This document shows positions 7,255 to 47,691 of a stretch of DNA of 64,000 nucleotides, in pieces (within the stretch, counting starts at the first letter, position 1; the number at the start of each line of letters is the position of its first letter). The position numbers and the translations under genes were made by a program. Where the stretch lies: contig JAPLYG010000001.1 in assembly GCA_026395685.1 (NCBI GenBank), positions 7,862-71,861 of the forward strand, written 5' to 3'. This stretch comes from Candidatus Parcubacteria bacterium. GTDB taxonomy: Bacteria > Patescibacteriota > Patescibacteriia > CAIXNZ01. The notes under the pieces were generated by a model. It ran no database searches and was not told where the DNA came from. It worked only from the letters and a program-made list of their open reading frames with translations.

Positions 7255-7291
7255 AAAATTATTATTAATTTTTAAAATAACTGCAAAAATT

Positions 7292-8518: not shown

Positions 8519-8544
8519 TAAAATCATTTTTCTTAAGTTATCAT

Positions 8545-12518: not shown

Positions 12519-15422
12519 ATGGACAAAAAGCACCAAATCTTAAGAACGCCACAAATAGACAGTGATATAACAGATTCTGCTAAAAACAAGCTGAAGAAAG
12601 GGCTTGTTAGTTTGGTTCAGAAATTCAAGGAAGAAGACGGCTGGTCAAAGTCTGAAGAACATGTTCAGACCAGCTTTACGATTAAGTTACTGGAATTGCT
12701 GGGCTGGGATAGTTCAAGCTGGAATATCAACCAAGGACAGGATGTTAAGACTGGCAAAAAGCCCGATATAGTTTTAAAATCAAGCACATCCAAACTTTTA
12801 GTTATTGAGTCTAAGGATGCCCACAAAAAAGACATGCTTGACGGAGCATATCAGACCAAAACTTTTGTAGAGCAGTTATTAAAATATTGTTCTGGTGAGG
12901 GTGTGGCCTGGGGCGTACTGACTAATTTCGTGGAATGGCGACTGTACAGCTTTTATCAGGGGCGATTATATAAAAACAAAAAGTATGCCTTTTATGATTT
13001 GCTTTGGCCGAACGCCAACAAAGAAGATTATATTGATTTGCTTTCAGAAGATGGTTTAAACTTCTTACTCAAGCTCTCTAAAAGTTTCTTACTGCAAACT
13101 CAGGGCAGAATTGATCAGGATACTATTTATTATCCAGTTCAGCAGGATTTGGGCGTGGAAAAAATAAAGAAAGAATTTTTTGAAAAGATTAAAGTTTGGC
13201 GGTCATCCTTGCGTAAATATTTATTAAAGAATTATCCTCGCATTGAGGCTGATGATATTGATTTATTAGCACAGAAAATTTTAGACCGCTTAATCTTCAT
13301 GGACATCTGCCATGACAAGCATGTAATTGGCGAAGACATTATTGGTCAGGTTAAGGAATCAAAGTTGCCCAAGTATCAGGAATTGAAACTCAAGTTTAAA
13401 CAGATGGATGATAAGTTTAATACCGAGCTTTTCACATTTAAAGATTACAGCCAAGTCAATGAAGAAGATATTAAGATCAATGACGAAGTTATCCTACCAA
13501 TAATCACAGACTTGATAGAAATTGATTTTTCTAAATTAAGCGTTCATATTATCGGCGAAGTTTACGAGAATTATTTGGGCGAATTGGCCAAGTCCAGAAC
13601 TACTGATTCCGCCTCCGCTAAAGCTTCGGCGGACAGGGAAAAGAAAATCAGCGATAAGCAGAAACAAAAACGAAAATCCCAGGGTATTTACTATACTCCC
13701 GATTACATTGTTGACTACATTGTGAAAAATACAATCGGTGAGATATTGAAACAGGCAAAAACTGTTGAAGAAATAGAAAAAATAAGAGTCATAGATCCTG
13801 CCTGTGGATCAGGTTCTTTCCTTATCAGAGCATTTGATGAGTTTTTAAATGCATATATGCGGGTTCACAGAGAAGGCGGTCTGTTTGCTTTTGAATTAAA
13901 AAAGAAAATCTTGCAGAAGAATCTGTTTGGGGTTGATTTGGATGCCAAAGCCGTGGAAATTACAAAGTTGAATCTGCTGATTAAGGCTTTGGATGGCACC
14001 AAACCTGAAGATCTTAAGGGTAAACACCTTTTGCCTAATTTAAACTTGAACATTCGCTGTGGTAATTCATTGATTGGCGGTGAAAAATTACAGGATAAAG
14101 AGCAAAGCTTAAATCTTTTTGATAATTATAAAACTGAAGTTAATAAATTAGCTGACTTAAAGATTAGTTTTTACAAAGAATCAGATGATCAGAAGAAAAA
14201 GGACTTGCTGACAGAAATTGGCACATTGGAAATGGTGATTAATAAAAATCTTAACGGTGGGTTGAGCAAATACTTCTCCAACTTATCAAAAGTTGATCCC
14301 TTTAATTATTTCGTCGCATTTTGTTAAATATTTAATGATGGTGGGTTTGACGCAATAATCGGTAATCCGCCATATGGAGCTGAACTGAATGATAATGAAA
14401 AGGAATTTTATGCTAATAATTTTGGGGTCGGTTCAACTGATACTGCAATCCTGTTTATCAAGCGTTCATTTGATATTTTAAAGGATGAAAGTAAATTCGG
14501 ATTTATTGTCCCTAAAGCTTTTTGTTTTGCCTCTAATTACGAAAAAATCAGGGATTATGTTTGGAATAATCTGGAACAGATTGTGGACTGCAATAAAGTA
14601 TGGAAAGAAGTCAAACTCGAACAGCTTATATTTATAATCAACAAAGAAAAGAAATCTAAAAAATACTTATCCGCTAATTTTAAGAATAAGCAATTAAACA
14701 TCCTCGGCGATATTGATAAATCCGATGCAAAAGAATTTGGTTTCTTTTTAAATAGTGTTTCACCCGACGAAGTTGAAATCGCTAAAAAGATAAAATCAAA
14801 TTCACTTATGCTTAATGATATTGCCACTAATCAGAGGGGTGCAATTTTACAAAAACATATTTCAGACAAGGGCGAACTTGAGGTTATTGGCGGAGCGCAA
14901 GTACAGAGATTTGGAATTGATGGGATTAAGGGTAAAATTGACAAGAGTAAAATAGACAATGATCAAGCTTATTTAAAAGATAATTCTGTCTTAGTCCAGA
15001 ATATTGTCGCTCATATAGAAAATCCTGTTGACCATATTTTAATTATTGCAGGAATACCTGAAAAAGCAGACTATATTTTAGTGGATACCGTAAATCAAAT
15101 AACTTTACAAAAAGAGTTCTCGCCTTATTTTATTTGGTGTCTTCTAAATTCTAAGATAATTAACTGGTATGCTTATAGGTTCATTTTTGGTAAAGCTATT
15201 AGAACTATGCATTTTGATAATTCAGTGACTGCACGATTGCCTATTCCTAAGGCCACGAAGCAGGAGAAAAATTTATTAATTCAAAAGGCAAAGGAATTCT
15301 TGAAATTGGTAAAACAGAACCCAAGTGAGGATAAAATAAATGCGGTTAATTACGAAATTGACAAGGTGGTTTATAATTTGTTCGGATTGACTGATAATGA
15401 AATTAATTTATTATTTAAATAA
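12519..15422 (+). pseudogene. Type IIG restriction-modification enzyme (MmeI/Eco57I-like: PD-ExK nuclease, gamma-class N6-adenine MTase, TRD) interrupted by one in-frame TAA at 14325-14327
   Basis: N-terminal 'PDIVLK...VIESK' nuclease core. MTase motif I 'IDPACGSGSFL' lies upstream of the stop, and motif IV 'GNPPYG' (14358-14378) lies downstream of it in the same frame. The reading frame continues to 15422. The ORF track splits this into 12519-14327 and 14583-15422. Confidence 0.6.
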
Positions 15423-15437
15423 TCTAACTATAAAAAT

Positions 15438-16472
15438 ATGGATGACCGTAAAATACAAGAGATAAGAGAAGGATTACAAAGTTCTCATGTGAATTTTTTA
15501 TTTGGAGCGGGCTTGTCAACACCATATTTGCCATTGCTTGGCGATATTGAGATAAGATTATCAAGAGAAAGGAAATCCGCTGAAAGAATAAAGATAAAGA
15601 AGGAATACTTTGAAAAAGTCATGATCCCCAATTTAGAAATCATAAATAATGATATTACTAGTTCAAAACAGAATGATTTTAATATTACACAAAAAGCATA
15701 TAAAGATTTTTTTGAGCTTATTGGTCACATTTTACTTCACAGAAAAAATACTATTTTAAGTAAACAAGTAAATATCTTTACAACTAATATTGACATTCTA
15801 ATGGAAGTAGCATTAGAGGAACTTAACATGGAATACAATGATGGATTCTCTGGTAGACTAAATTCAGTTTTTAGTTTAAGTAATTTCAAGCGGTCTATTT
15901 TAAAACGAAGCTTGCACTATGAAAATGTATCGGAGGTGCCTATTTTCAATCTGGTAAAAATACACGGTTCCCTTACTTGGAAGAAAATTGAAGACAAGAT
16001 ATTTTTCTCTAAATTAACCCATTTTGATAAATCATTACTAAAAAAGTCTGGGAAAAAATTTGATGACAATTACAAAAAATTAGCAATAGTGAATCCTGAA
16101 AAGAAAAAACTTGAAGAAACCGTAATGGATCTGACTTATTATGAATTACTCAGAATGTATTCTAGTGAATTAGAGAAAGAAAATGTCATTTTATTTATTA
16201 TGGGTTTTTCAATGGAAGATGAACATATAAGAGAAATAACTATTAGGGGTGCTAATTCAAATCCCACATTAAAAATCTATCTTATTAGTCACGAAAAAGA
16301 TACTAATTTAGATCTGGCAAGAAAAATGGAAATCGGAAAATTGAGATATTCAAATATTGAAATAGTAGAACCTGAAGATGGAGAACAAAATAGCAAATTA
16401 AGTCTAACTGTAATTACAAAATTGATTTTCGAAAAAGTGGTTAAGAACATTGCTCATGACAACAAAGATTAA
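15438..16472 (+). CDS. SIR2-family NADase (defence-associated sirtuin) of a SIR2-HerA pair
   Basis: SIR2 signature motifs 'FLFGAGLST', 'FTTNIDILME' (TTNxD) and 'KIHGSL'. Confidence 0.8.
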   Translation: MDDRKIQEIREGLQSSHVNFLFGAGLSTPYLPLLGDIEIRLSRERKSAERIKIKKEYFEKVMIPNLEIINNDITSSKQNDFNITQKAYKDFFELIGHILLHRKNTILSKQVNIFTTNIDILMEVALEELNMEYNDGFSGRLNSVFSLSNFKRSILKRSLHYENVSEVPIFNLVKIHGSLTWKKIEDKIFFSKLTHFDKSLLKKSGKKFDDNYKKLAIVNPEKKKLEETVMDLTYYELLRMYSSELEKENVILFIMGFSMEDEHIREITIRGANSNPTLKIYLISHEKDTNLDLARKMEIGKLRYSNIEIVEPEDGEQNSKLSLTVITKLIFEKVVKNIAHDNKD

Positions 16473-18366
16473 TCCAATTGAAAAAGAATTAGTTAGGGAG
16501 TCAATTTTTATAATTGGACATGTTTTGTCTGTAGAGGGTAGGATTGTCAAAATTAAATTAAATAAAGATAAGAATCATTCCCACATACTGTACGAGGGTA
16601 AAACGGTAAAAAATGTTTCAGTTGGTGGTTATGTAAAAATCATTAAAGGTTTTGTTAGTATTATTGGTAAGGTTGAGGGAGAATATATTACTGAAGAAAA
16701 ATACATCAATAGAGAATATAACAAAGAAGAGATAAAAATAAATAGAATTTTGCAGGTTTCTCTTTTTGGTCATTTTGAAGGTGGTTGTTTTAGACAGGGT
16801 ATTAAAGAAATGCCACTTATTGATAACGAGTGTTATCTTTTAAATAGAGAAGAGTTCAACACCCTTCATCAGTTCTATAAAAATAGTCAGAAGTCGATAG
16901 TCATAGGAAGTTTAACAGAAGAACCTTCGCAAAAGATACGACTAGGTGTCAATAATTTATTTGCTAGTCACATAGGAATATTTGGCAATACAGGAAGTGG
17001 TAAATCAAACACATTAGCCAAAATTTACACTGAATTATTTATAGAATTTGATGATAACGAGGAGTTTAAAGCTAAATCTGATTTCGTGATTATTGATTTT
17101 AATGGTGAATATATAGGTAGGGATATAATTACCAATAATAAAACTGTTTACGAATTATCTACAGGTAAAGAAGGAAGTAAGAAAAAATATCCAATAACTA
17201 GAGAAAATCTTAATAAGGTTGAAGTGTTATCCGTTTTATTAGAAGCTACGGAAAAGACTCAAAAGCCTTTTCTGGATAGGGTTGTAAGAAATGATTACTT
17301 AAATGACGTCGATAAATTTAATAGTAGGGTAATTTCTGATATAGAAGATATTTGCAGAAACATTATTGACAAAAAAGACAAAAATATGCGAGAAGGAGTT
17401 GTGGTTGAGTTATTTGGACGAATTTCAGATTTAGTTTTAGATGAAAGTAAAGATGGGATAACAAATTTAAAAAAAGAAATTGAAAATAATTTGCATTTCT
17501 TTTCAGGTACTGGTGGTACCCCCGAATATTACTGGGCAAATTCCTCAGATTCAAATAATTTTAATAACAAGACACCAATTTATGATAATAAAATAAAAAC
17601 CGTAGTGGATGGTTTAAAATTTAAAAGTGATGAGTTTAGTAAATTAAAACTAAAGATTATACTCAATTATTTTCACGAGACTATTAAGGGATACTCAAAT
17701 CAGGAACACATTGCCCCTTTAATCGGCAGAACTTTTAGAAAATTCGATATGCTTGAAAAGTTAATTGAGATTAATGAAGAAGTAGACTCAAATAACTTAT
17801 CAATTGTTTGTTTGAGAAATGTAAATATTGAAATGAAAAAGATAATTCCTCTTATTGTTTCTAAGCAACTATACGAGAGGAAAAAAGAGATAAATGGGAA
17901 AAAATCATTGCATATCATTGTTGATGAAGCACATAATATTCTTTCAACGATGTCGCAAAGGGAAAGTGAAACATGGAAAGATTATCGCCTAGAAACATTT
18001 GAAGAAATAATTAAAGAAGGTAGAAAATTTGGTGTCTTTTTGACCATCGCAAGCCAAAGGCCATATGATATTTCCTCTACAATCATTTCTCAATTGCACA
18101 ATTATTTCATCCATAGACTAATTAATGATAATGATATTAATGCGGTTGAGAAGGCGGTTTCTTATCTTGATAAGCTATCATTTCAAACTATCCCAATATT
18201 ATCAGTTGGAAGTTGTTTTGTTGCTGGATTAGCTTCGGATATACCTATTAAAGTCGATATTGATCCACTGGAAAAAAACAAAAGACCAAAGAGCGAGACT
18301 GTTGATTTAGAAAATGCGTGGACAAAAATTTTGTCGCCAAATAATCGAAAATCAAGCAAACAATAG
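16450..18366 (+). CDS. HerA/DUF87-family ATPase partner of SIR2
   Basis: Walker A 'GNTGSGKSNTL'. Walker B 'LHIIVDEAHNI'. Size (638 aa) and 23-nt overlap with the SIR2 gene, typical of an operon. Confidence 0.8.
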   Translation: MLMTTKINPIEKELVRESIFIIGHVLSVEGRIVKIKLNKDKNHSHILYEGKTVKNVSVGGYVKIIKGFVSIIGKVEGEYITEEKYINREYNKEEIKINRILQVSLFGHFEGGCFRQGIKEMPLIDNECYLLNREEFNTLHQFYKNSQKSIVIGSLTEEPSQKIRLGVNNLFASHIGIFGNTGSGKSNTLAKIYTELFIEFDDNEEFKAKSDFVIIDFNGEYIGRDIITNNKTVYELSTGKEGSKKKYPITRENLNKVEVLSVLLEATEKTQKPFLDRVVRNDYLNDVDKFNSRVISDIEDICRNIIDKKDKNMREGVVVELFGRISDLVLDESKDGITNLKKEIENNLHFFSGTGGTPEYYWANSSDSNNFNNKTPIYDNKIKTVVDGLKFKSDEFSKLKLKIILNYFHETIKGYSNQEHIAPLIGRTFRKFDMLEKLIEINEEVDSNNLSIVCLRNVNIEMKKIIPLIVSKQLYERKKEINGKKSLHIIVDEAHNILSTMSQRESETWKDYRLETFEEIIKEGRKFGVFLTIASQRPYDISSTIISQLHNYFIHRLINDNDINAVEKAVSYLDKLSFQTIPILSVGSCFVAGLASDIPIKVDIDPLEKNKRPKSETVDLENAWTKILSPNNRKSSKQ

Positions 18367-18436
18367 TTTGTATAAAACACCACTCTCTTAATTAATTCTA
18401 TTAACATTGATAGAATAGATTGTCATTTTAAATAAT

Positions 18437-19906
18437 ATGCCACACCAAATTATAAAATTTTCAGAATATTTTAATCTAAATAAGAGTCAGTACGAACTTG
18501 ATTTTGTTGATGTTCCTATAAATAATGGCGATGTGCCTTTATTTATTGATCCCTATGCAATATCTAAAAGAACTGATTATTGGTCAATTGAGTGTCATAA
18601 TGCAATCGTAGATTTCTTTCAATATTTAATTGATCAAATTAGCCAAGGCAACACTCAACAAGCCAGGAATGCTTTATCTGGTTTAAGGGAGCCAAATCAA
18701 ACCAGATTAGGCATGTCTACTGGAAATAAGCCAAGAGGACGAGGTATCGGGAATGAGCAATCTGAATTTTTATTTTTAGCATTATCAGAAAGCACCGCTG
18801 TAAGAACTGGATTCATAAAAGATCTAGAAGAATGTGAACTTTTAATTGAGGGTATTGGCCGTGATAAAATTTCCGATATAGCCACAAATATAATCAGACA
18901 TAAATTAATTGAGTATACTCAAATACAGTGTGAACTTTGGAATATCACATTAAACTCGGTTCCAAGTGGGATGACATGGAATCAAGATTTAAATGAATGG
19001 GAGAATGAATATGTTAATCTGCCAGTATGTAATTCTAATAGTGTTATTTTAATCCCAAAGGCAATAGCTAGATTTGATATTGAATTTGATTATCAAGAAT
19101 ATTATCAACACTTCGTATTGAATTTTCTTCAATCCGAAGAATTATCTGCAAATTCTTCACTGGTTAGAACTTTAAAAAATGGGACTAAAAAACCACCCTA
19201 CAAAAAAGCTTTAAAGGAAAAATATCCTTTAACCAAGAAATATCTTTATGAATTTTCTAAAGAGCACCCAGATATATTAAGTAATTATAAAACTAGCAAA
19301 GGCTATAATTTAAGAGAATTAAGCGTAGAGGATATTTTATTTTTCGCTTATAAACAAGAGACAAATAGAAGCATTGATTATAATACTTTAAAGAATAAGT
19401 TAAATACCATTCAAACTGGAGACTCAGCCGCTAATCAATATCATGATTATATTATAGGAGCGATGACGGCAATATTTTATCCTTACCTTATCAACCCTAA
19501 AAAAGAGCAGGAAATTCATGATGGAAGGAAAAGAATTGATATAGTATTCCAAAATTCAGCACATGACGGTTTCTTTTTTGAATTACCGAATACTAAATCG
19601 GTTCCGTCCGGGTATATATTTGTCGAGTGTAAGAATTACGCAAGTGATCCCGCCAACCCTGCATTGGATCAATTGTCTGGAAGATTTTCAACTAATAGAG
19701 GTAAATTCGGATTTTTAGTGTGTAGGTCATTTAGCAATAAAGATTTATTTATACAAAGATGCAAAGACACAGCACAAGATGATAGAGGTTTTATTGTCGC
19801 ACTAGACGACGATGACATTGAAAAGTTATTAGAATTTAGAAGTAATAATAATTATGCTGGCATTAATACTTTTTTAGATGATAGATTTAAAGAATTGGTA
19901 ATGTAA
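18437..19906 (+). CDS. Hypothetical protein with C-terminal PD-(D/E)xK nuclease-like core
   Basis: 'RIDIVFQN...GYIFVECKNY' (D...E-x-K) near the C-terminus. The N-terminal 330 aa are unrecognised. Confidence 0.4.
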   Translation: MPHQIIKFSEYFNLNKSQYELDFVDVPINNGDVPLFIDPYAISKRTDYWSIECHNAIVDFFQYLIDQISQGNTQQARNALSGLREPNQTRLGMSTGNKPRGRGIGNEQSEFLFLALSESTAVRTGFIKDLEECELLIEGIGRDKISDIATNIIRHKLIEYTQIQCELWNITLNSVPSGMTWNQDLNEWENEYVNLPVCNSNSVILIPKAIARFDIEFDYQEYYQHFVLNFLQSEELSANSSLVRTLKNGTKKPPYKKALKEKYPLTKKYLYEFSKEHPDILSNYKTSKGYNLRELSVEDILFFAYKQETNRSIDYNTLKNKLNTIQTGDSAANQYHDYIIGAMTAIFYPYLINPKKEQEIHDGRKRIDIVFQNSAHDGFFFELPNTKSVPSGYIFVECKNYASDPANPALDQLSGRFSTNRGKFGFLVCRSFSNKDLFIQRCKDTAQDDRGFIVALDDDDIEKLLEFRSNNNYAGINTFLDDRFKELVM

Positions 19907-19912
19907 TATAAT

Positions 19913-20329
19913 ATGCTTAAAGAATCACAAGTTGAAAATATTTTGAGAGGATACTTAATTAGTAAAGGATGGCGATTAACAAACTTGCCTAAAGGTATTG
20001 GTGAAGGTGGTATTGATATTAAAGGTTATCATCCTATTAAAAGGAAGGTTTTATTGGTAGAGGTTAAAGGTGACGGGAAAGCAAAGAATCAAACACTGCA
20101 TAATGGTTTTTACACTATTTTAGGCCAGATACTTTTTCGCATGGATAAACAAGGTAATGATCAGAAGAAGGCTAGAACCTATGCCTTAGCCATCCCTGCA
20201 AATTGGGAGGATGCGTTTACTAAGAAAATCAAACAAATGCCATACGGCTGGAGTTTATTGCGATTAAAAGTCTTTTTAGTTTCAAATAGAAGCGTTGAAG
20301 AAAAAAATTATAAATATTTTTTAAAATAA
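19913..20329 (+). CDS. Small PD-(D/E)xK-fold protein (YraN/Hjc-like mini-nuclease)
   Basis: 'ENILRGYLISKGWRL...GEGGIDIKGY...LLVEVKGDGKA' resembles the UPF0102/YraN layout. Starts 7 nt after the previous gene. Confidence 0.4.
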   Translation: MLKESQVENILRGYLISKGWRLTNLPKGIGEGGIDIKGYHPIKRKVLLVEVKGDGKAKNQTLHNGFYTILGQILFRMDKQGNDQKKARTYALAIPANWEDAFTKKIKQMPYGWSLLRLKVFLVSNRSVEEKNYKYFLK

Positions 20330-20342
20330 TTAAATATAAATT

Positions 20343-20540
20343 ATGCTCACCTCAAAAATCAAAGTCCTAAACGAAGAAAAAATTGCCAATATAATTTTGG
20401 ATTTAGAACGCGGGAAATTAAAAATTCCAAGATTTCAGCGTCAATTTGTTTGGGAGCGGTCAAAAATTATTAAACTTTTAGATAGCATCTATCAGGAGTT
20501 TCCGATCGGCAGTTTTTTCGGGGGAATGACTTGTGGATAA
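20343..20540 (+). pseudogene. Truncated DUF262 (GmrSD/ParB-like type IV restriction N-domain) fragment
   Basis: 'IPRFQRQFVWERSKIIKLLDSIYQEFPIG' is the DUF262 signature. The ORF stops after 65 aa, whereas intact family members are several hundred aa. Confidence 0.5.
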
Positions 20541-20613
20541 GTATTGTTGTGTTCGGCTTTTGTTCGGGATATAATATTAATAACAAAATATCTCTAAGTA
20601 TTATTCATATTCT

Positions 20614-21564
20614 ATGCCGAAAACGAACTATTGGGATTTAACCAATAGGCCACATACAAAATTAAAACTGGAGATTTATGAAAAATACCTTAAGTCATGG
20701 TGCCAAATTTTTAAAAAACAGGCATGGGCTAAGGATGTTTTTATAGTAGATTGCTTTGCTGGTAAGGGCGATTACCTTGATAATGGCGCAATCGTGGATG
20801 GTTCTCCTCTCATAACCATAAAAACAGTTAAGGAAATTAATGAGGATTTTAAGAATAACAAAGTCAGGAATAAAGATTATTTTAAAATCAAATGTTTTTT
20901 TATTGAAGAAAATTCTGGTTATGCCAATAATTTAACTAAGCTTTTGGAGCCATATAAGAAGGATGTTGAATTTGAAATAATCAATGATGACTTCAATAAA
21001 GTAATCGCTAGGCTGGTAAAAGATATGGCAAATAAGCCGGCGTTATTTTTTATTGATCCCTATGGCATAAAAAGCGTGAATAAATCTAGCATCTTATCAG
21101 TTATTAATAAACCAGGGGCCAAAGATATTTTATTTAACTATATAAACGAAGGAGTCATCAGGATTGCTGGATTAGCCAAGAAAGTAATAACTAGAGACAT
21201 TGACGATATCACAGTCACGGAACTTAAAACAATAAAGCATTTGCAGAATTTTATTGGCGATAAGTTTTTAGAACTTATTGATAAAAATGACATAGAAATA
21301 CTTAAGTATTATGTTGATAATATTTTAAAAAGCAATAATAACGATACTGCCGGGAAAAATAATCTCGATGTAATCGGCTTTGACATGCCTTACCCCAATA
21401 AAAGCGATACGATTTATTATTTATTGTTTGCGTCAAGAAACAAACAGGCGATGAAAATCGTAAGCCAAGTATATGCTAACAGCAAAAAGGAAAACTTGCA
21501 GAAACAAAAAAGCCTTTTTGATTCTAAAGAGCAATTGAGAATACATAAGGATTTTAAGGTCTAA
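20614..21564 (+). CDS. Hypothetical protein, possible TcmP-like partner protein (MTase-like 'IVDCFAGKGDY')
   Basis: N-terminal 'FIVDCFAGKGDYLDNGAIVDGSPL' and 'LFFIDPYG'. Tight pairing with the downstream Cys-motif gene. The assignment is from memory of the family and not verified. Confidence 0.3.
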   Translation: MPKTNYWDLTNRPHTKLKLEIYEKYLKSWCQIFKKQAWAKDVFIVDCFAGKGDYLDNGAIVDGSPLITIKTVKEINEDFKNNKVRNKDYFKIKCFFIEENSGYANNLTKLLEPYKKDVEFEIINDDFNKVIARLVKDMANKPALFFIDPYGIKSVNKSSILSVINKPGAKDILFNYINEGVIRIAGLAKKVITRDIDDITVTELKTIKHLQNFIGDKFLELIDKNDIEILKYYVDNILKSNNNDTAGKNNLDVIGFDMPYPNKSDTIYYLLFASRNKQAMKIVSQVYANSKKENLQKQKSLFDSKEQLRIHKDFKV

Positions 21565-21599
21565 GTATAAATATGATATAATTAAAACATATAAATCCC

Positions 21600-22439
21600 A
21601 TGCAAAAAATAACCAGAAAATCTCTTTTATATAAAAGCGGTGTTGAATACGCTGATTTTTGCATTAATCATGTAGAGGGATGCTCTCATGGCTGTAAGTT
21701 TCCTTGCTATGCCATGATGATGAAAAAACGATGTGGGGTAATTAAGACTTATAGCGACTGGATCCAACCTAAAATAGTAAGCAACGCCCTGGAATTACTT
21801 GATAAGGAAATCCCCAGGTTGAAACATAAGATTAAAGTAGTTCATCTTTGTTTCACAACTGACCCTTTTATGTATAAACAGCCGGAGATTACAGATTTAA
21901 CTTTGAAAATTATTGAGAAGTTAAATGCTAATGGCATCAGATGCACGGTATTGACTAAAGGAATTTATCCTAAAGAATTGGCAGACACTACGAAATATAG
22001 TCCCAGCAATGAATATGCCGTAACTTTGGTTTCTCTGAATAAAAATTTCAAGGAGCAATTTGAGCCTGGCACAGCTCCTTACGAATCAAGAATAAACGCT
22101 TTAAAATATCTGCATGACAGTGGATTAAACACCTGGGTCAGTATGGAGCCTTATCCAACCCCTAATTTAGTCAGGCAAGACCTGGAGAAAATATTGGAGA
22201 AAATAGATTTTGTCGACAAGATAATTTTTGGCAAATTAAATTATAATGTTAAGGTTACCCAATTCCAAGATAATAAAGATTTTTATGATAATTGCGCCAG
22301 TGTTGTTACAGATTTTTGCACTCAAAATAATATAAGCTATCATATTAAATACGGCACGGCAAAAAAAGATAATTTTAAAACAGAGAAAATTTTCAAAGTT
22401 GCGAGCTGTAATTTAGATCCTGTAACTTTTAATGTTTAA
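21600..22439 (+). CDS. COG1533/spore-photoproduct-lyase-like Cys-motif protein (variant 'GCSHGCKFPCYA')
   Basis: 'NHVEGCSHGCKFPCYAMM' resembles the 'GCxHGCxYCYA' radical-SAM-type motif of SplB-like DNA repair lyases, but with CX3CX3C spacing. Confidence 0.4.
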   Translation: MQKITRKSLLYKSGVEYADFCINHVEGCSHGCKFPCYAMMMKKRCGVIKTYSDWIQPKIVSNALELLDKEIPRLKHKIKVVHLCFTTDPFMYKQPEITDLTLKIIEKLNANGIRCTVLTKGIYPKELADTTKYSPSNEYAVTLVSLNKNFKEQFEPGTAPYESRINALKYLHDSGLNTWVSMEPYPTPNLVRQDLEKILEKIDFVDKIIFGKLNYNVKVTQFQDNKDFYDNCASVVTDFCTQNNISYHIKYGTAKKDNFKTEKIFKVASCNLDPVTFNV

Positions 22440-25029: not shown

Positions 25030-25046
25030 ATAATAGGTGAAATTTT

Positions 25047-25083
25047 TGGGAAAACAAAAAGGGTCCCACGTCGGTGGCACCCT
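25047..25083 (-). terminator. Hairpin plus U-run immediately upstream of the 23962-25029 start (leader attenuator or terminator of an upstream sRNA)
   Basis: Minus strand reads 'GGGTGCCACCGACGTGGGACCC' followed by 'TTTTTGTTTT', about 20 nt before the ATG. Confidence 0.4.
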
Positions 25084-25782
25084 TTCGGGCGCCCAACAAC
25101 CTTTCGGATGTTGACCATTCGCATAGTGCCGATCATGAGACCGTCTTTATGCGAATGGATTTGAGCGACCATGCCCCAAGGAGGAATCCTTGGGGGTTAG
25201 GTCCAAATTGTATGAAATTATTCATATCATACCTTAAAAAATGGTTGCTGTAAAGCGGGGTTACCGACAGTTTATCTACTCGGGTTTCAGCAAAAAGTTA
25301 TCCACAATTTAATTTTTGACTTACAAAATCACAAAATTATAACATATCTGATTTTGCTTAATCTTAGATGAATTTTCATGGTTGACTTACGAGATGTAAT
25401 TATCTGAAAAACACGATTATAAACTTGACGGAACTGCTAGTTAAGCTATAATTAATGTAACAGTTCTTGTGACTAGCTCTTCGAAAACTTAATATCAGCA
25501 ATAAGATATAAGATTTTATAACTAATTAACATTTAAGTTCGGTTTTAAAAAGGAAAAAATCTATAACCCTAATAAAAGGTTTTAGGTTTGAAGTTAAAAT
25601 ATAAGATTTAAAATTAAAATTCTAAAAAAGTTCCAGTCATTTAATATCCCTATAAGATATTAAATTTAATTTTAAACAATCCAGCAATGGGTATATTTTA
25701 ACAACAGACTTAAGGCCTTTTTTTGTTAAAAGCTATCCCCATTGAGGATAGCTTTTTAATTATTTATAATTAATTTTATTTT

Positions 25783-27054
25783 ATGCAAAACTCAGCCAAA
25801 TTAAAAATAGAGTCAATTCCTATTGCTGAACTTAAGGTGGATATTTACAATCCCAGAATCCACACGCCAGAAGCAATAAGCCAGCTAAAAGAGTCAATTA
25901 AAAAGTTCGGCGAAATTTCGCCAATAGTGGCTAATAGTGCTCCCAACAGGAAAAATATTGTAATTTCGGGGCACATGAGAATAAAAGCCTGCTTAGAGTT
26001 AGGGCTTAAGGAAATACCGACAATTTTTGTGAACATCCCCGACATTAATCGAGAAAAAGAATTAAATCTTCGCATGAACCGTACTGGCTCATGGGATTAT
26101 GAACTTCTTAAGAGTTTTGACTTAAATGTCCTTTTGGATGTTGGGTTCGATAACAGTGATTTATCTTTGATATGGGATCAGAACTTGGAAACTGAAGATG
26201 ACAGTTTTGATGTAGAAACGGAATTAAAAGAGATTAAGAAAACAGACATAAAAGTTGGAGATTTATTCCAGATTGGATCTCATAGGATTTTGTGCGGTAA
26301 TTCATTGGATCTTTCAGCAGTAAAAGGGCTTATGGGCGGTAAAAAGACAAGGATGATATATACCGATCCGATCTACAACATCTCTCTGGATTATAACTTG
26401 GGGATTTCTCAGAAACAAAATTATGGCGGACAAACTAATGACAAGAAAACCGATGCTGAATACAAAGAATTTCTGAAAGGAGCTATTTCTAATGGATTGG
26501 CGGTTTCTGAAAAGGATTTACATGTGTTTGTTTACTGTGACCAAAGATATATTGGTTTAATTCAAGATCTTTATCATGAGCTTGGGATAAAGAACCAAAG
26601 GGTCTGCCTTTGGATTAAGAATGGATTTAATGTAACTCCACAAATAGGTTTTAATAAATCATATGAGCCTTGTGTTTATGGAACAATGGGAACGCCTTTT
26701 CTTTCAGACATAAAGAACTTAAGTGAAATTTTAAACAAGGAAATCGGCACAGGAAACAGAACAATTGATGACATCATGGACTTGTTGGATATTTGGCTGG
26801 TTAAACGTTTGCCAGGCCAAGATTACACACACGCCACAGAGAAGCCAACAACTCTCCATGAAAAAGCAATAAAAAGATGTACATCTCCTGGCGATATTAT
26901 TTTAGATCTATTCGCTGGTTCGGGATCAGCCATTATTAGTAGTGAACAACTTAAGCGAGTATGTTACGCCGTCGAGATTGAACCTATCTTCGTACAACTA
27001 ATTATTAACAGGTTTGAAAAATATGCAAACATCAAAGCAAAAAAGCTCAATTAA
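25783..27054 (+). CDS. ParB-N domain fused to beta-class N4/N6 DNA methyltransferase
   Basis: ParB-like 'ISGHMRIKAC'. MTase motif IV 'MIYTDPIYN' precedes motif I 'ILDLFAGSGSAII...YAVEIEP'. Confidence 0.75.
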   Translation: MQNSAKLKIESIPIAELKVDIYNPRIHTPEAISQLKESIKKFGEISPIVANSAPNRKNIVISGHMRIKACLELGLKEIPTIFVNIPDINREKELNLRMNRTGSWDYELLKSFDLNVLLDVGFDNSDLSLIWDQNLETEDDSFDVETELKEIKKTDIKVGDLFQIGSHRILCGNSLDLSAVKGLMGGKKTRMIYTDPIYNISLDYNLGISQKQNYGGQTNDKKTDAEYKEFLKGAISNGLAVSEKDLHVFVYCDQRYIGLIQDLYHELGIKNQRVCLWIKNGFNVTPQIGFNKSYEPCVYGTMGTPFLSDIKNLSEILNKEIGTGNRTIDDIMDLLDIWLVKRLPGQDYTHATEKPTTLHEKAIKRCTSPGDIILDLFAGSGSAIISSEQLKRVCYAVEIEPIFVQLIINRFEKYANIKAKKLN

Positions 27055-27793
27055 ATATGGTGACATTTTTACGCTAGGCGAACATCTTTTATGTTGCGGA
27101 AATTGTACAGATACGGAATTAGTAAAGAGGTTATTGGGCAATAATAAAATTAAATTAATTTTGGCGGATGTGCCGTATGGCGTGAATTTTACCCAATCAA
27201 AAGAAAGTTTATTGAAAAAAGAGACAAAGCATAAAGATATTGTCGGTGATGAAGATCAAAGCGACGAAAAATACAGTTCCTTCACCCGAGAATGGCTAGA
27301 AGCGATTAAACCTTATTTGGAAAGGAAAAATGCCTTCTATATTTTTAATTCAGATAAGATGATTTTTTCACTCAGACAAGGGATTGAGAATGCTGGTTAC
27401 AATTTTGGGCAGCTTCTAATTTGGGTGAAGAGTCAGGCTGTAATCGGACGAAAGGATTATCTTCCCATGCATGAGCTTATTGCATACGGATGGTGTGGTA
27501 CTCATGAATTTATGAAAAGTAAGGCGAAAAGCGTGCTCTTTTATCCTAAACCTCAAAACAACAATCTTCATCCGACAATGAAACCAATCAGTTTGTTAAG
27601 AGATTTGATTTTGAATAGCACAAGGATTGGTGACATTGTTTATGATGGATTCGTTGGGTCTGGGTCAACTATTTTAAGTTGTGAGCAAACTAAGAGAAAA
27701 TGTTTTGCTTTTGAGATCGAACCCGACTATTGCCGAGTTATTCTTGAGAGATTCGAGAAATTAACAGGCATTAAACCTAAAAAACTAACTTAA
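27014..27793 (+). CDS. Beta-class DNA methyltransferase (phage-type orphan MTase)
   Basis: 'LILADVPYG' (DPPY variant) and 'VYDGFVGSGSTIL...FAFEIEP'. Confidence 0.75.
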   Translation: MKNMQTSKQKSSIKYGDIFTLGEHLLCCGNCTDTELVKRLLGNNKIKLILADVPYGVNFTQSKESLLKKETKHKDIVGDEDQSDEKYSSFTREWLEAIKPYLERKNAFYIFNSDKMIFSLRQGIENAGYNFGQLLIWVKSQAVIGRKDYLPMHELIAYGWCGTHEFMKSKAKSVLFYPKPQNNNLHPTMKPISLLRDLILNSTRIGDIVYDGFVGSGSTILSCEQTKRKCFAFEIEPDYCRVILERFEKLTGIKPKKLT

Positions 27794-27797
27794 TACT

Positions 27798-28205
27798 ATG
27801 AAAGATCTAAAAACTAAAGAGTTATTTCTAGACCAGCTTAAGAAGACCCCAATAATTCAGGTCTGTTGTGAAAAAACTGGCATCAGCAGAGCAACACTTT
27901 ATCGCTGGAAAGCAAAGGATAAGGGTTTTGCTGAAAAATTAGATAAAGCCTTAGGCGAAGGCACTGAATTGGTAAATGATTGCGCTGAAAGCATGTTAAT
28001 TTCAGCTATTAAGGATAAAAACATGACGGCCATCACCTACTGGTTAAAAAATAAGTGTCCTGGATATATGCCTAAGCTGGAATTGTCGGGCAAAGTAAAA
28101 GTGGAAAACGAGGCTCTGTCCGAAGAACAGAAGTCTCTAATCAAGAAAGCCCTTGAGCTTTCTGGCTTAAATATTAATGATCCTAAATATGATAAGTACA
28201 AATAA
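27798..28205 (+). CDS. Phage terminase small subunit-like HTH protein
   Basis: 'KTGISRATLYRWKAKDKGFAEK'. Sits directly upstream of and overlapping the terminase large subunit. Confidence 0.5.
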   Translation: MKDLKTKELFLDQLKKTPIIQVCCEKTGISRATLYRWKAKDKGFAEKLDKALGEGTELVNDCAESMLISAIKDKNMTAITYWLKNKCPGYMPKLELSGKVKVENEALSEEQKSLIKKALELSGLNINDPKYDKYK

Positions 28206-29760
28206 TTTTGACCCAGAGCTAATAGCCAAAATAATGGTTGATCAAAAAGTCAGACAGGAAATCGCCTACAATTCTCATGTATTGTTCTTCCATATTTATT
28301 TTAGCCACTATGTCCAATATCAGACTGCGGATTTCCAGCGTAATCTATTTGATTTGACGCATGATGCTGAAAATCCGTTATTGTGCGTGCTCGCTTTTAG
28401 GGGTTCAGGCAAAAGTTCTATTATGTCAGTATCATTTCCGATTTGGGCAGTACTCGGCAAATTACAGAAAAAACACGTGGTGTTGATTGCCCAAACAATG
28501 GATCAAGCCAAACAAATGCTATTTAACATAAAAACCGAGCTTGAAAATAACCAGCTGCTTAAATCGGATCTGGGACCATTTAAGGAAGAAGAAGACTGGC
28601 GTTCATATACATTGGTATTATCCAAATATGGTGCGAGAATTTCGGCGCTGTCAACTGAGCAAAGCAGTAGAGGCATCAGACACAGAGAAAACCGTCCTGA
28701 TTTGATTATTTTAGATGATGTGGAAAATTCTTATTCCGTTAAGACCAAAGAGTCGAGAGACAAATTATATAATTGGTTTAATTCTGAAATTGTGCCTTTA
28801 GGCGATAAGCAAACTCAAACTGTGATAATTGGGAATCTGCTTCATGAAGATTCTTTGATGATGAGAATAAAGGAAAGAATTACCAGCGACAATCTTACCG
28901 GCAAATTTGTAGAAATACCGATTGTTTATAAAGATGGAAAGATTGCCTGGCCGGGAAAGTATCCGACGATGGCTGATATTGAAAATCTAAAAAAAAGAAT
29001 GCCCGATCCCGCCATCTTTGCTTTGGAGTATGAATTAAGAAAAATTGATGATGGAGATAGAATAATTCATCAGGAATGGATTAAAACTTATGCTAATCTT
29101 CCAGATCCCAATGATAAAACACATAGATACTTATTCACCGTCTCAGGAATTGATCCTGCGGCTTCGACTGATAGCGGAGCATGCTTTACGGCAATAATTT
29201 CTGCTCATATCTACCAAATTCGCGAAAGGCTTAAAATTTTTATTTTGCCTAATCCATTAAACAAAAGGCTGACATTCCCTCAGTTGATAGAGCAGATAAA
29301 ATTATTGGATATACGATTAAAAAGGGAGAAACATAAATTATTTATCGAAGATGTTGGCTATCAAAAAGTATTAATTCAGGAATTGTCTTCTCAGTATTTT
29401 GCCGTAGAAGGAATAAAAGTTGGCTCTCTTAATAAGTATGAAAGATTAAAGTTGACCAGCAATGCGGTTTTTGACGGGACTGTTTTGTTTCCTGAAAAAG
29501 GCTGTGAAGCGTTAATAAATCAGATTGTTAATTTCGGCGTAGAAAGATATAAGGATCTGGCAGATGCCTTTTCGCTATTAATTAACCAGCTGATATCCGC
29601 TAATTATAAGCAGAACGAACTTTATGTGACAACAGGAAATTTTACTCATATAAATATCCCCGGTCAAGACCATTTCACTGAACAGTCAAAGGCGGCAAAG
29701 ATAGCTGAATATAAAAGGTTACAGGATAAAATTAACAGAGACGGGTTTCTGTATTTTTAG
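28177..29760 (+). CDS. Phage terminase large subunit (TerL)
   Basis: P-loop 'AFRGSGKSS', 'LIILDDVEN', and a C-terminal RNaseH-like nuclease region with conserved acidic residues. Confidence 0.7.
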   Translation: MILNMISTNNFDPELIAKIMVDQKVRQEIAYNSHVLFFHIYFSHYVQYQTADFQRNLFDLTHDAENPLLCVLAFRGSGKSSIMSVSFPIWAVLGKLQKKHVVLIAQTMDQAKQMLFNIKTELENNQLLKSDLGPFKEEEDWRSYTLVLSKYGARISALSTEQSSRGIRHRENRPDLIILDDVENSYSVKTKESRDKLYNWFNSEIVPLGDKQTQTVIIGNLLHEDSLMMRIKERITSDNLTGKFVEIPIVYKDGKIAWPGKYPTMADIENLKKRMPDPAIFALEYELRKIDDGDRIIHQEWIKTYANLPDPNDKTHRYLFTVSGIDPAASTDSGACFTAIISAHIYQIRERLKIFILPNPLNKRLTFPQLIEQIKLLDIRLKREKHKLFIEDVGYQKVLIQELSSQYFAVEGIKVGSLNKYERLKLTSNAVFDGTVLFPEKGCEALINQIVNFGVERYKDLADAFSLLINQLISANYKQNELYVTTGNFTHINIPGQDHFTEQSKAAKIAEYKRLQDKINRDGFLYF

Positions 29761-29840: not shown

Positions 29841-31181
29841 ATGGATCAACCAACGACGCAAATTAAGGGCAATTTGGGGGCTTTAAGCAACAAACAGGCG
29901 GATTTGAAGCCTATACTCAAGTATTGCCTTTACTCAAGAAAATCAACGGAACAAGAGGAACGGCAGGCTCTTTCCATTGATTCGCAAATTAAAGAAATGT
30001 TAAAAGTTGCAGAAAGAGATAATCTGGAAGTAACCGAGATTAGGCGTGAAAGCCATTCTGCCAAAGCTTCGGGAGCCAGGCCGATTTTCAAACAGCTGTT
30101 AGTTGATATTGAGAAAGGACTATTCAATGGAATTTTAACCTGGGCTCCCGACAGGTTAAGTAGAAACGCTGGGGATCTGGGCGAATTGGTCGATCTGATG
30201 GATCATCAAAAACTGATTGAAATCAGAACATTCAGCCAGATATTCACTAATTCACCTAATGAAAAATTTCTACTGATGATCTTGGGCAGTCAGGCCAAAC
30301 TGGAAAACGATAATAGGGGCGTTAATGTCAAAAGAGGATTAAGAGCCAGAGTTGAAATGGGTTTGTGGCCCGGCCAGGCGCCGACTGGTTATCTGACTAA
30401 TAAAAATGTTGATAAGAAAGGTCAAGTTTTAGTAGATCCAGACCGAGCTCCAGTGCTCCGCAAAATGTTTGAAAAAGTAGCTTATGAAAATGTTAGCGGT
30501 CGTAAACTATATGCCTGGCTAAAATTTGATATAGACTTCAAAACTAAATACGGCAAACATTTAACGCTAAGCAATGTATACAGAATTTTAAATAGCCCGT
30601 TTTATTACGGCAGATTCCAATATCCTAAAGAAAGCGGAAACTGGTATCAGGGCAAGCATGAACCATTAATATCGCAAGAACTCTATGAACTGGTACAGCA
30701 AGCGATTACCAGAGGCCAGCATATTAAATCAGAAGCAAAGGAATTCATGTTTGTTAAGCTGATTAAGTGCGGAGCCTGCGGATCAGGAATAACCGCAGAT
30801 GAAAAATTCAAAAAGCTATTGGACGGATCAGTAAGCAGATATGTTTATTACGGATGCACTAAGAGCAAGGATATCCATTGCAAGACAGGTTATATAAGAG
30901 AGGACGAATTATTAAAGCAGATGCTGGAATTGATTGATCGGGTCGATCTTAATCAGCTGGGCATAAAAGAAAAAATAGAAAATGAAATAGACAGGTACTA
31001 TAAATTCAAAACCAGCGTGCTTGGCGAGTCAGACACAAAGAAAAATAAGCAAAAAGATCTGGATATTAAAAATTATGCCAAGTACATCTTAAAGGAAGGC
31101 AGTGTTTATGAAAAAAGAGATTTGTTATCTAACTTAAGAAGCAAGCTTGTACTTAAGGATAAAAAGTTGATGCTGGAATAG
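29841..31181 (+). CDS. Large serine recombinase/integrase
   Basis: Resolvase catalytic region 'YCLYSRKSTEQEERQALSIDSQ'. Recombinase domain, then zinc ribbon 'CGACGSG...YYGC' and a coiled-coil tail. Confidence 0.8.
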   Translation: MDQPTTQIKGNLGALSNKQADLKPILKYCLYSRKSTEQEERQALSIDSQIKEMLKVAERDNLEVTEIRRESHSAKASGARPIFKQLLVDIEKGLFNGILTWAPDRLSRNAGDLGELVDLMDHQKLIEIRTFSQIFTNSPNEKFLLMILGSQAKLENDNRGVNVKRGLRARVEMGLWPGQAPTGYLTNKNVDKKGQVLVDPDRAPVLRKMFEKVAYENVSGRKLYAWLKFDIDFKTKYGKHLTLSNVYRILNSPFYYGRFQYPKESGNWYQGKHEPLISQELYELVQQAITRGQHIKSEAKEFMFVKLIKCGACGSGITADEKFKKLLDGSVSRYVYYGCTKSKDIHCKTGYIREDELLKQMLELIDRVDLNQLGIKEKIENEIDRYYKFKTSVLGESDTKKNKQKDLDIKNYAKYILKEGSVYEKRDLLSNLRSKLVLKDKKLMLE

Positions 31182-31277: not shown

Positions 31278-31352
31278 TGGTACCGCCTAGGGGAATCGAA
31301 CCCCTGTTACCAGGATGAAAACCTGGTGTCCTAACCACTAGACGAAGGCGGC
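31278..31352 (-). tRNA. tRNA-Glu(UUC), CCA encoded
   Basis: Minus strand reads 'GCCGCCTTCGTCTAGTGGTTAGGACACCAGGTTTTCATCCTGGTAACAGGGGTTCGATTCCCCTAGGCGGTACCA'. Cloverleaf with anticodon loop 'TTTTCAT'. Confidence 0.85.
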
Positions 31353-31611: not shown

Positions 31612-31620
31612 ATTAATCAA

Positions 31621-47684: not shown

Positions 47685-47691
47685 TCCAAAC

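What the first reader, a model, noticed from the sequence alone, without database searches (positions are those of the whole stretch)
15438..18366. SIR2-HerA anti-phage system
A SIR2 protein (GAGxS, TTNxD, KxHGS motifs) is followed, with overlap, by a DUF87/HerA ATPase (Walker A GNTGSGKSN, Walker B IIVDEAHN). This is the two-gene NAD+-depleting SIR2-HerA defence system. Its presence in a reduced-genome CPR-like bacterium is notable.
Basis: partly seen in the sequence, partly recalled or inferred. Interest (0 to 1): 0.55.

Follow-up and report, generated by a model that had tools for sequence, protein, structure and literature searches.

The report
SIR2-HerA phage defence gene pair
Two overlapping genes encode an intact SIR2–HerA anti-phage system of a known kind, carried with other defence genes on a mobile island beside a tRNA gene in a tiny-genome (CPR) bacterium, so it is a correct but fairly ordinary find.

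Summary

- **Family matches.** Both match the PADLOC SIR2+HerA models near full length (2e-60 and 6e-177).
- **Catalytic residues.** SIR2 N117/D119/H176 and HerA Walker A K183 and Walker B D490/E491 are present and conserved across the family.
- **Structure.** Predicted folds best match SIR2 and HerA subunits of solved SIR2-HerA complexes, not sirtuin deacetylases or VirB4/TraG ATPases.
- **Pairing.** In every related locus with enough upstream DNA (80 of 84), a SIR2 gene sits directly upstream. The two proteins co-diverge (r = 0.97). No other neighbour is conserved.
- **Host.** The host is CPR/Patescibacteria, judged from FtsH relatives and synteny. This is not unusual: 22 of 80 species-representative loci with this HerA subtype are CPR, including 7 of the 8 closest.
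- **Subfamily.** The pair is only 15-20 % identical to the studied systems and belongs to an untested subfamily that also occurs on E. coli plasmids.
- **Context.** It lies in a defence island next to terminase genes and a serine integrase that abuts tRNA-Glu. Five other CPR loci repeat the tRNA-plus-integrase arrangement.

Verdict: new member of a known kind, of modest interest.

The parts
15438..16472 (+). SIR2-like NADase effector gene (344 aa; GAGLS at residue 23, catalytic N117/D119/H176; no cysteines)
   Evidence: PADLOC SIR2 PDLC04080 2.1e-60. Pfam SIR2_2. PDB sequence hits are SIR2 of SIR2-HerA complexes only. The top 37 fold hits are the same. Catalytic residues are invariant or nearly so.
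16456..18366 (+). HerA/DUF87 ATPase gene (636 aa from the ATG; an alternative TTG lies at 16450). Walker A GNTGSGKS (K183), Walker B DE (D490/E491). Predicted beta-barrel, RecA core and helical-bundle insert.
   Evidence: PADLOC HerA PDLC04097 5.9e-177. Pfam DUF87. PDB hits. Model and fold search. Motifs invariant. P0001 is 100 % identical at 636 aa.
16456..16472 (+). 17-nt overlap between the SIR2 stop and the HerA start, consistent with translational coupling
   Evidence: Sequence. The genes overlap in 59 of 75 homologous loci, the mode is -17 nt, and they are never more than 20 nt apart.
12519..15422 (+). Neighbouring type IIG restriction-modification gene, interrupted by one in-frame TAA at 14325-14327 just before the NPPY motif. 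It is a probable pseudogene and not part of the SIR2-HerA unit.
   Evidence: PADLOC REase_MTase_IIG 2.2e-60. Translation across the stop. TAA is the usual stop codon here.
18437..19906 (+). Neighbouring candidate defence gene PDC-M36A (489 aa), not linked to SIR2-HerA elsewhere
   Evidence: PADLOC PDC-M36A 1.2e-49. phrog_27295 1.3e-106. Absent from all 84 related loci.
20614..22439 (+). TcmP-like protein plus radical SAM protein, a two-gene candidate defence module of the PDC-M30/M41 type
   Evidence: NCBIfam TIGR04474 TcmP 2.5e-39, above its cutoff. PADLOC PDC-M30A 2.8e-26. Pfam Radical_SAM.
25783..29760 (+). Phage-type module: ParB-DNA methylase, DNA methylase, small terminase-like protein, large terminase
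   Evidence: PHROGs phrog_498 2.9e-85 and 1.2e-62, TerS 4.2e-09, TerL phrog_38 3.9e-66. Pfam.
29841..31181 (+). Large serine recombinase/integrase, convergent on tRNA-Glu. It marks the right end of the island.
   Evidence: Pfam Resolvase, Recombinase and Zn_ribbon_recom. phrog_95 integrase 7.7e-67. The same tRNA-plus-integrase geometry occurs in L006, L007, L011, L028 and L052.
31278..31352 (-). tRNA-Glu(UUC), the probable integration site. In two relatives the tRNA is followed by a NUDIX gene instead of the island.
   Evidence: ARAGORN and Rfam. Relatives L085 and L086.

Best explanation
This is an intact two-gene SIR2-HerA abortive-infection defence system.

**Mechanism (inferred from homology to the Escherichia coli, Paenibacillus and Staphylococcus systems).**
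- The overlapping genes are co-translated.
- HerA, made of an N-terminal beta-barrel, a RecA-type ATPase core and a helical bundle, forms a ring that docks a SIR2 oligomer.
- The complex stays quiescent until phage infection is sensed. The signal may be a phage protein, DNA ends or a fall in ATP, depending on the subtype.
- SIR2 then hydrolyses NAD+ using the N117/H176 site. Possibly aided by HerA-linked DNA nicking or ATP consumption, this arrests the infected cell and blocks phage propagation.

**Genomic setting.** The pair is cargo in a defence island, which is probably a prophage remnant or satellite-like element. A large serine integrase inserted it next to tRNA-Glu in a CPR/Patescibacteria genome.

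**Shown here:** gene integrity, family membership by sequence and predicted fold, conservation of catalytic residues, strict pairing and co-divergence of the two genes, host lineage, and the mobile-element context.

**Inferred:** complex formation, NADase activity, the trigger and the anti-phage phenotype.
For: - **Family models.** Both PADLOC models match near full length, and the Pfam domains are above threshold.
- **Sequence against the PDB.** The only PDB sequence hits for SIR2 are SIR2 subunits of SIR2-HerA complexes (8j4u/8su9, 8w9l/8wld, 8yhx). The best HerA hits are the HerA partners of those complexes.
- **Predicted folds.**
  - SIR2 model: pLDDT 79.8, pTM 0.84. Its top 37 fold hits are all SIR2 of SIR2-HerA complexes, ahead of DSR2 and ThsA.
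  - HerA model: pLDDT 75. Its top hits are SaHerA and PsHerA.
- **Catalytic residues.** N117 and H176 are invariant and D119 is conserved in at least 90 % of 39 homologues. HerA Walker A and B are invariant in 36 homologues.
- **Not a deacetylase.** SIR2 has no cysteine, so it has no sirtuin zinc ribbon. Its deacylase model score is 15 bits against a cutoff of 252.
- **Pairing.**
  - SIR2 lies directly upstream in 80 of 84 related loci; the other 4 are cut by a contig edge.
  - Identities of the two proteins correlate at r = 0.97, with overlap in 59 of 75 loci.
  - No other neighbour is shared.
- **Island.** Integrase, terminases and ParB-methylase were identified. The relatives have NUDIX after tRNA-Glu. 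The tRNA-plus-integrase geometry recurs in other CPR loci.
Against: - No biochemical or phenotypic data exist for this pair or, as far as I could find, for its subfamily.
- Identity to the studied systems is only about 15-20 % in structural alignments.
- Scores are far below the NCBIfam equivalog cutoffs: 83 bits against 500, and 126 against 800. Details such as stoichiometry, trigger, and helicase or nickase activity may therefore differ, as they already do among the studied subtypes (PMC11514289, PMC13434337).
- The adjacent type IIG gene carries a nonsense codon, so parts of the island are decaying.
- Promoter-like sites are no more frequent than in shuffled sequence, so expression is not shown.
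- The left boundary of the island could not be defined.
Confidence: 0.88

Rival explanations
1. The ATPase is a conjugation, secretion or DNA-pumping ATPase (VirB4, TraG/TrwB or FtsK type) of a mobile element, and its adjacency to SIR2 is incidental.
For: Weak sub-threshold P-loop hits to FtsK_SpoIIIE (19.1 bits, cutoff 24) and TrwB_AAD_bind (15.7 bits, cutoff 20.5). The locus sits in a mobile element.
Against: The HerA match runs the full length at 5.9e-177. All top-50 fold hits are HerA proteins, none VirB4, TraG or FtsK. SIR2 is the upstream partner in every testable locus and co-diverges with HerA. No other conjugation genes are nearby.
Confidence: 0.02
2. The SIR2 protein is a housekeeping NAD-dependent protein deacylase (CobB-like sirtuin) rather than a defence NADase.
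For: It shares the Rossmann-fold GAGxS, TTNxD and HG motifs with sirtuins.
Against: It matches Pfam SIR2_2, not the canonical SIR2 family. The deacylase NCBIfam model scores 15 bits against a cutoff of 252. It has no cysteines, so no zinc ribbon. The top fold hits are defence SIR2s. It is always paired with HerA.
Confidence: 0.02
3. The pair is a silent or decaying remnant, non-functional cargo of a degraded prophage like the neighbouring type IIG gene.
For: The adjacent type IIG gene has an in-frame TAA. A 65-aa DUF262-like fragment lies at 20343-20540. The element lacks recognisable capsid or tail genes. There is no expression evidence.
Against: Both ORFs are full length relative to their profiles. 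Every invariant family residue that was checked is retained. The conserved 17-nt overlap is intact.
Confidence: 0.06
4. SIR2-HerA is only the core of a larger system that needs flanking genes, such as PDC-M36A downstream or the R-M gene upstream.
For: The genes are tightly packed and co-oriented from 12519 to 22439. The gap between the R-M gene and SIR2 is only 15 nt.
Against: None of the flanking genes recurs next to the pair in 84 related loci. The gene downstream of the pair in the 86 %-identical locus L001 is unrelated to PDC-M36A. The published systems work as two genes (PMC11472057, PMC11514289).
Confidence: 0.03

Closest known systems
Staphylococcus aureus Sir2-HerA (PDB 8YHO/8YHX; PMC11514289)
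   Same: It gives the best HerA match by sequence (E 1.4e-26) and by fold (E 4e-23, TM 0.58-0.65). It is also a two-gene system. The catalytic Asn/His dyad is conserved. The HerA has a beta-barrel, a RecA core and an extended helical bundle.
   Different: Identity is only about 19 %. SaSir2 is 428 aa against 344 aa here. SaHerA has EE at Walker B and was reported to lack ATPase activity, whereas this HerA has the canonical DEAH.
E. coli SIR2-HerA / Nezha (PDB 8J4U, 8SU9 and others) and Paenibacillus sp. 453MF SIR2-HerA (PDB 8W9L/8WLD; PMC11472057)
   Same: The SIR2 hits have the best sequence E-values (3e-14) and the top fold ranks. Paenibacillus N163 and D165 align with N117 and D119 here, and H176 lies in the HGS motif that aligns with the corresponding motif of these SIR2s. 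The gene order is SIR2 then HerA.
   Different: Identity is 15-20 %. SIR2 here is shorter (344 aa against 381-415). HerA here lacks the long C-terminal arm domain of PsHerA (636 aa against 696). Scores are below the NCBIfam equivalog cutoffs built on these types.
Enterobacterial plasmid SIR2-HerA pair (WP_024232765.1 and WP_024232767.1 on E. coli IncF plasmid NZ_MN218686.1)
   Same: It belongs to the same PADLOC subfamily models, PDLC04080 and PDLC04097. The sizes are similar (348 and 602 aa), and the genes overlap and are co-oriented. Identity is 31 % for SIR2 and about 40 % for HerA.
   Different: It is carried on a conjugative plasmid rather than a tRNA-integrated island. I found no experimental data tied to these accessions.
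E. coli type III Sir2-HerA (PMC13434337)
   Same: It is a two-gene Sir2-HerA abortive-infection system. An acidic residue needed for HerA nicking (D218) is reported. This HerA has an invariant D214 in a conserved DxxGEY motif, but their equivalence was not tested.
   Different: The catalytic Asn of type III Sir2 is N238 against N117 here, which implies a much larger N-terminal region and a different subtype.
DUF4297-HerA and archaeal HerA-NurA
   Same: They share the HerA fold.
   Different: Their partner protein is a nuclease (DUF4297 or NurA), not SIR2. Here the partner is SIR2 in all testable loci.

Membership tests
SIR2-HerA anti-phage system | A SIR2_2-type (defence) sirtuin-fold protein with the catalytic Asn and His | tested here: met
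   PADLOC SIR2 2.1e-60. Pfam PF13289. N117 and H176 invariant. Fold hits.
SIR2-HerA anti-phage system | A HerA/DUF87 ASCE ATPase with intact Walker A and B and a beta-barrel, RecA and helical-bundle architecture | tested here: met
   PADLOC HerA 5.9e-177. DUF87. K183 and D490/E491 invariant. Secondary structure of the model and fold hits.
SIR2-HerA anti-phage system | The two genes are adjacent, co-oriented and inherited as a unit | tested here: met
   17-nt overlap. SIR2 is upstream in 80 of 84 loci, and the rest are cut by a contig edge. r = 0.97 co-divergence, and never more than 20 nt apart.
SIR2-HerA anti-phage system | Location in defence islands or mobile elements (supportive, not strictly defining) | tested here: met
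   Flanked by a type IIG R-M gene, PDC-M36A, TcmP plus rSAM and a Cas4-like DUF2779 protein. Integrase and terminases are beside tRNA-Glu.
SIR2-HerA anti-phage system | SIR2 and HerA assemble into a supramolecular complex | not testable with these tools
   Only single-chain prediction was available. A multimer prediction or pulldown is needed.
SIR2-HerA anti-phage system | Infection-triggered NAD+ hydrolysis and phage protection | not testable with these tools
   This needs an experiment. It is inferred from PMC11472057, PMC11514289 and PMC13434337.
NCBIfam equivalogs SIR2_antiphage (NF042942) and HerA_antiphage (NF042943/NF042944), the Nezha/Paenibacillus-type subfamilies | Score at or above the curated equivalog cutoff | tested here: not met
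   83 bits against 500, and 125.8 and 100.8 bits against 800 and 850. The pair is a different subfamily of the same system, not these equivalogs.
Canonical sirtuin deacylase (CobB/Sir2) | Match to deacylase models, and a zinc-ribbon Cys motif | tested here: not met
   15.2 bits against a cutoff of 252. Zero cysteines.
VirB4/TraG/FtsK-type mobile-element ATPases | Above-threshold match or fold similarity to these families | tested here: not met
   FtsK_SpoIIIE and TrwB hits are below the gathering score. None appears in the top 50 fold hits.

The most novel reading that the evidence does not exclude
The SIR2-HerA pair may be cargo of a previously undescribed family of CPR integrative elements. 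Each would have a large serine integrase convergent on the 3' end of a tRNA gene. Some carry terminase genes, a ParB-methylase and the orphan LOOT RNA but have no recognisable capsid or tail genes, so they would be satellite-like or defence-carrying elements. Such elements would shuttle this SIR2-HerA clade among ultra-small bacteria, and would give the function-unknown LOOT RNA a genomic home.
Probability: 0.25. Interest if true: 0.55.

Novelty: new member of a known kind. Interest (0 to 1): 0.3.

Why it matters
The result confirms that a CPR bacterium carries an apparently functional NAD+-depleting abortive-infection system. Public annotation labels its proteins only as 'SIR2 family protein' and 'ATP-binding protein'.

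It also shows that this SIR2-HerA subfamily is widespread in CPR lineages, and that it moves on tRNA-targeting serine-integrase islands.

This is useful for defensome surveys and for choosing a compact, divergent SIR2-HerA (344 + 636 aa) for structural or mechanistic comparison. It does not change what is known about the system.

Tried and rejected
- **Source contig.** Exact-sequence look-ups of the window's SIR2, PEPCK, PDC-M36A and P0001 found no contig on record. The source contig could not be fetched, and the host was inferred from protein names and relatives instead.
- **A three-gene system.** The protein downstream of the pair in L001 (482 aa) is unrelated to the 489-aa PDC-M36A gene downstream of HerA in the window, so this idea was dropped.
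- **att repeats.** No copy of the tRNA-Glu 3' end was found near 12 kb. Long repeats are not expected for serine integrases.
- **Empty-site test for the left boundary.** A scan of metagenome contigs with the histidine kinase at 9872-11869 gave only distant homologues, at most 37 % identity. The left boundary at about 12.3-12.5 kb remains an inference.
- **Left flank as phage structural genes.** PHROGs found nothing for the proteins encoded in 636-9435.
- **Recoding of the in-frame stop in the type IIG gene.** The codon is TAA, the normal stop here.
- **Mapping to E. coli types I-III.** No sequences or supplements were available. Only type III could be excluded, from its residue numbering.
- **Doubt about the CPR host.** PurL, PurM and PEPCK in the window first made me doubt the assignment. 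PurL and PurM are syntenic in two relatives whose FtsH is 85 % identical to the window's, the same identity as a named Parcubacteria FtsH, so the doubt was dropped.
- **Promoter and terminator scans.** These were uninformative: 38 promoter-like sites against 39.7 expected.
Full report
**1. Observation**

- The quoted motifs are all present: GAGLS at residue 23, TTNID at 115 and KIHGS at 174 in the first protein, and GNTGSGKSN at 177 and IIVDEAHN at 487 in the second, numbered from the ATG at 16456.
- A 100 %-identical public protein is 636 aa long (P0001).
- A 17-nt overlap is the commonest junction in the family. The ATG at 16456 is therefore the more likely HerA start. This is a trivial correction.

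**2. What the two proteins are**

*Family models*
- PADLOC defence models match both proteins near full length. SIR2 PDLC04080 scores 2.1e-60 over profile positions 10-340 of 347. HerA PDLC04097 scores 5.9e-177 over 7-613 of 618.
- Pfam gives SIR2_2 (PF13289) and DUF87/HerA above gathering scores. FtsK, TrwB and ResIII hits are all below threshold.
- NCBIfam's anti-phage SIR2 and HerA equivalogs are the best matches but fall far below their cutoffs: 83 bits against 500, and 126 against 800. The pair therefore belongs to a different subfamily from the Nezha/Paenibacillus types on which those models are built.

*Solved structures*
- The only SIR2 sequence hits in the PDB are SIR2 subunits of three solved SIR2-HerA complexes, from E. 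coli, Paenibacillus and S. aureus.
- The best HerA hits are the HerA partners of those complexes, followed by DUF4297-HerA and archaeal HerA.

*Catalytic residues*
- Published catalytic residues are N163/D165/H212 in Paenibacillus SIR2 (PMC11472057) and N226/H287 in S. aureus Sir2 (PMC11514289).
- By the alignment, N163 and D165 correspond to N117 and D119 here, and H176 lies in the HGS motif that aligns with the corresponding motif of the solved SIR2s.
- In an alignment of 39 homologues at 50-76 % identity, N117, H176 and the GAGxS glycines are invariant, and D119 is conserved in at least 90 %.
- In 36 HerA homologues, Walker A (G177-S184) and Walker B (D490, E491) are invariant.
- The SIR2 protein has no cysteine, so it lacks the zinc ribbon of deacetylase sirtuins.

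*Predicted structures*
- The SIR2 model has pLDDT 79.8 and pTM 0.84. Its first 37 fold matches are all SIR2 chains of SIR2-HerA complexes, ahead of DSR2 and ThsA.
- The HerA model has pLDDT 75. It shows an N-terminal beta-barrel, a split RecA core and a helical-bundle insertion. It best matches SaHerA and PsHerA, and no VirB4, TraG or FtsK appears in the top 50.

**3. The pair is a unit**

- A scan of species-representative genomes returned 80 loci with this HerA subtype, and four more loci came from metagenome contigs.
- tblastn finds a SIR2 homologue directly upstream on the same strand in 80 of the 84 loci. The four exceptions have HerA within 214 nt of the contig edge.
- Across 75 loci with full alignments, SIR2 and HerA identities to the window proteins correlate at r = 0.97. 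The genes overlap in 59 loci and are never more than 20 nt apart.
- None of the window's other neighbours recurs next to the pair. This is a two-gene module, as in the published systems.

**4. Host and how unusual it is**

- The identical proteins are deposited from a 77-kb contig of a MAG named Candidatus Parcubacteria bacterium.
- FtsH from the same contig has its closest named relatives (80-86 % identity) in Parcubacteria, Buchananbacteria and Falkowbacteria.
- Two large contigs from relatives share the gene order PurM-PurL-...-FtsH-x-PilB-...-TsaE-TsaD-...-GIY-YIG-tRNA-Glu.
- The CPR host guess is therefore right, and the purine genes that first looked out of place belong to the lineage.
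- The system is not exceptional there. Of the 80 representative loci, 22 are from CPR lineages: Saccharibacteria, Paceibacterota, Komeili-, Nomura-, Doudna-, Uhr-, Woese- and Buchananbacteria, and Peribacteria. Seven of the eight loci with at least 66 % HerA identity are CPR.
- A published aquifer survey already reports high defence-system density and diversity in CPR (PMC12259885).
- The same PADLOC subfamily also occurs on enterobacterial plasmids, for example an E. coli IncF plasmid pair of 348 and 602 aa.

**5. Context**

The pair sits in a run of defence-type genes:
- a type IIG R-M gene broken by one in-frame TAA just before its NPPY motif;
- the candidate defence gene PDC-M36A;
- a DUF262-like fragment;
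- a TcmP-radical SAM pair;
- a Cas4-like DUF2779 protein.

To the right lie a ParB-methylase, a second methylase, small and large terminase homologues and a large serine integrase. The integrase gene ends 97 nt from the 3' end of tRNA-Glu.

- In the two relatives the tRNA is followed by a NUDIX gene instead, which is consistent with an insertion.
- No capsid, portal or tail genes were recognised. The element looks like a prophage remnant or a satellite-like island.
- The same geometry, a tRNA with a convergent serine integrase ending at or in its 3' end and SIR2-HerA about 0.1-5.4 kb from the integrase (against 11.5 kb in the window), is seen in CPR loci L006, L007, L011, L028 and L052. L011 and L021 also share the TerS, TerL or ParB-methylase genes.
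- A homologue of the window's integrase lies within the fetched locus in 7 of 22 CPR loci against 2 of 58 non-CPR loci (Fisher p = 0.0013). Many loci are truncated, so this is only indicative.
- The left boundary could not be fixed. No att repeat was found and no empty site could be recovered.
- The SIR2-HerA segment has 29.6 % G+C, against 34 % for the island and 37 % for the window.

**6. Mechanism**

This is inferred by homology, with about 0.88 confidence in the overall assignment.

- The overlapping genes are co-expressed.
- HerA forms a ring that binds a SIR2 oligomer and holds the NADase in check.
- Infection cues release NAD+ hydrolysis at the N117/H176 site. In the studied subtypes the cues are phage proteins such as SSB, exposed DNA ends or a fall in ATP.
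- In some subtypes, HerA-linked nicking and ATP consumption contribute as well (PMC11472057, PMC11514289, PMC13434337).
- The infected cell is arrested and the phage fails to propagate.

The canonical DEAH Walker B, unlike the EE of the ATPase-inactive SaHerA, predicts an active ATPase. An invariant D214 in a DxxGEY motif might correspond to the nickase determinant D218 of the E. coli type III HerA, but that equivalence is untested.

**7. Novelty and score**

- The system is a new member of a known kind. It is an untested, divergent subfamily (15-20 % identity to the solved systems) that standard defence models already recognise.
- Its CPR host and mobile-island context are consistent with published trends.
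- Interest is 0.3.
- The most novel reading not excluded is that these islands form an undescribed CPR element family that also carries the orphan LOOT RNA. I give this about 0.25 probability.

Noticed in passing
window 25076-25203 (-); L011 8516-8641 (+); L003 13602-13727 (+): A full-length LOOT RNA (Rfam RF03000, 79-83 bits against a gathering score of 46) lies inside the island, immediately 5' of ORF 23962-25080. It recurs in two other CPR elements that carry SIR2-HerA together with ParB, TerS and a serine recombinase. It is absent from the 19 other CPR or close-relative loci and the 7 non-CPR loci that were scanned. The downstream ORFs are not homologous to each other. LOOT may be a component of this mobile-element type.
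   Followed up: partly
window 31318-31352 and 31660-31694, flanking ORF 31357-31680 (-): The 5' half of tRNA-Glu (35 nt, up to the anticodon loop) is duplicated on the far side of a small GIY-YIG endonuclease-like ORF. The same arrangement, with 22-27 nt repeats, is present in relatives L085 and L086. This suggests an old, minimal homing-endonuclease-type insertion at the tRNA.
   Followed up: partly
window 12519-15422 (+), stop at 14325-14327: A type IIG restriction-modification gene of about 967 codons is interrupted by a single in-frame TAA directly before its catalytic NPPY motif. It is probably a recent pseudogene, or a variant within the population.
   Followed up: yes
window 29841-31352; L006, L007, L011, L028, L052: Large serine integrases converge on, and often overlap, the 3' end of tRNA genes (Glu, Asn, Pro, Ser) in several CPR genomes. 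tRNA targeting is more familiar for tyrosine integrases.
   Followed up: partly
window 20614-22439 (+): A TcmP (three-Cys-motif partner, TIGR04474, 2.5e-39) and radical SAM gene pair matches the PADLOC candidate families PDC-M30A and PDC-M41A. It is an uncharacterised candidate defence module.
   Followed up: no
window 18437-19906 (+): A PDC-M36A candidate defence protein (489 aa) matches phage family phrog_27295 over its full length at 1.3e-106. Its function is unknown and it has no Pfam domain.
   Followed up: no
window 20343-20540 (+): A 65-aa ORF begins with a motif resembling the N-terminus of DUF262 (GmrSD/ParB-like nuclease) and then ends. By eye it looks like a truncated remnant of another defence gene. 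No family search was run on it.
   Followed up: no
P0203, P0204, P0206 (homologues, not in the window): Some SIR2 homologues of this subfamily (415-419 aa) carry an N-terminal excisionase/MerR-type HTH domain fused to SIR2.
   Followed up: no
window 43785-49043 (+) and 56359-58152 (-): Large single-chain PurL, PurM and a GTP-type PEPCK are encoded in this CPR contig at noticeably higher G+C (about 48 % against 37 %). PurL and PurM are syntenic in relatives, although PurL is only about 47 % identical while its neighbours are 77-85 % identical.
   Followed up: partly
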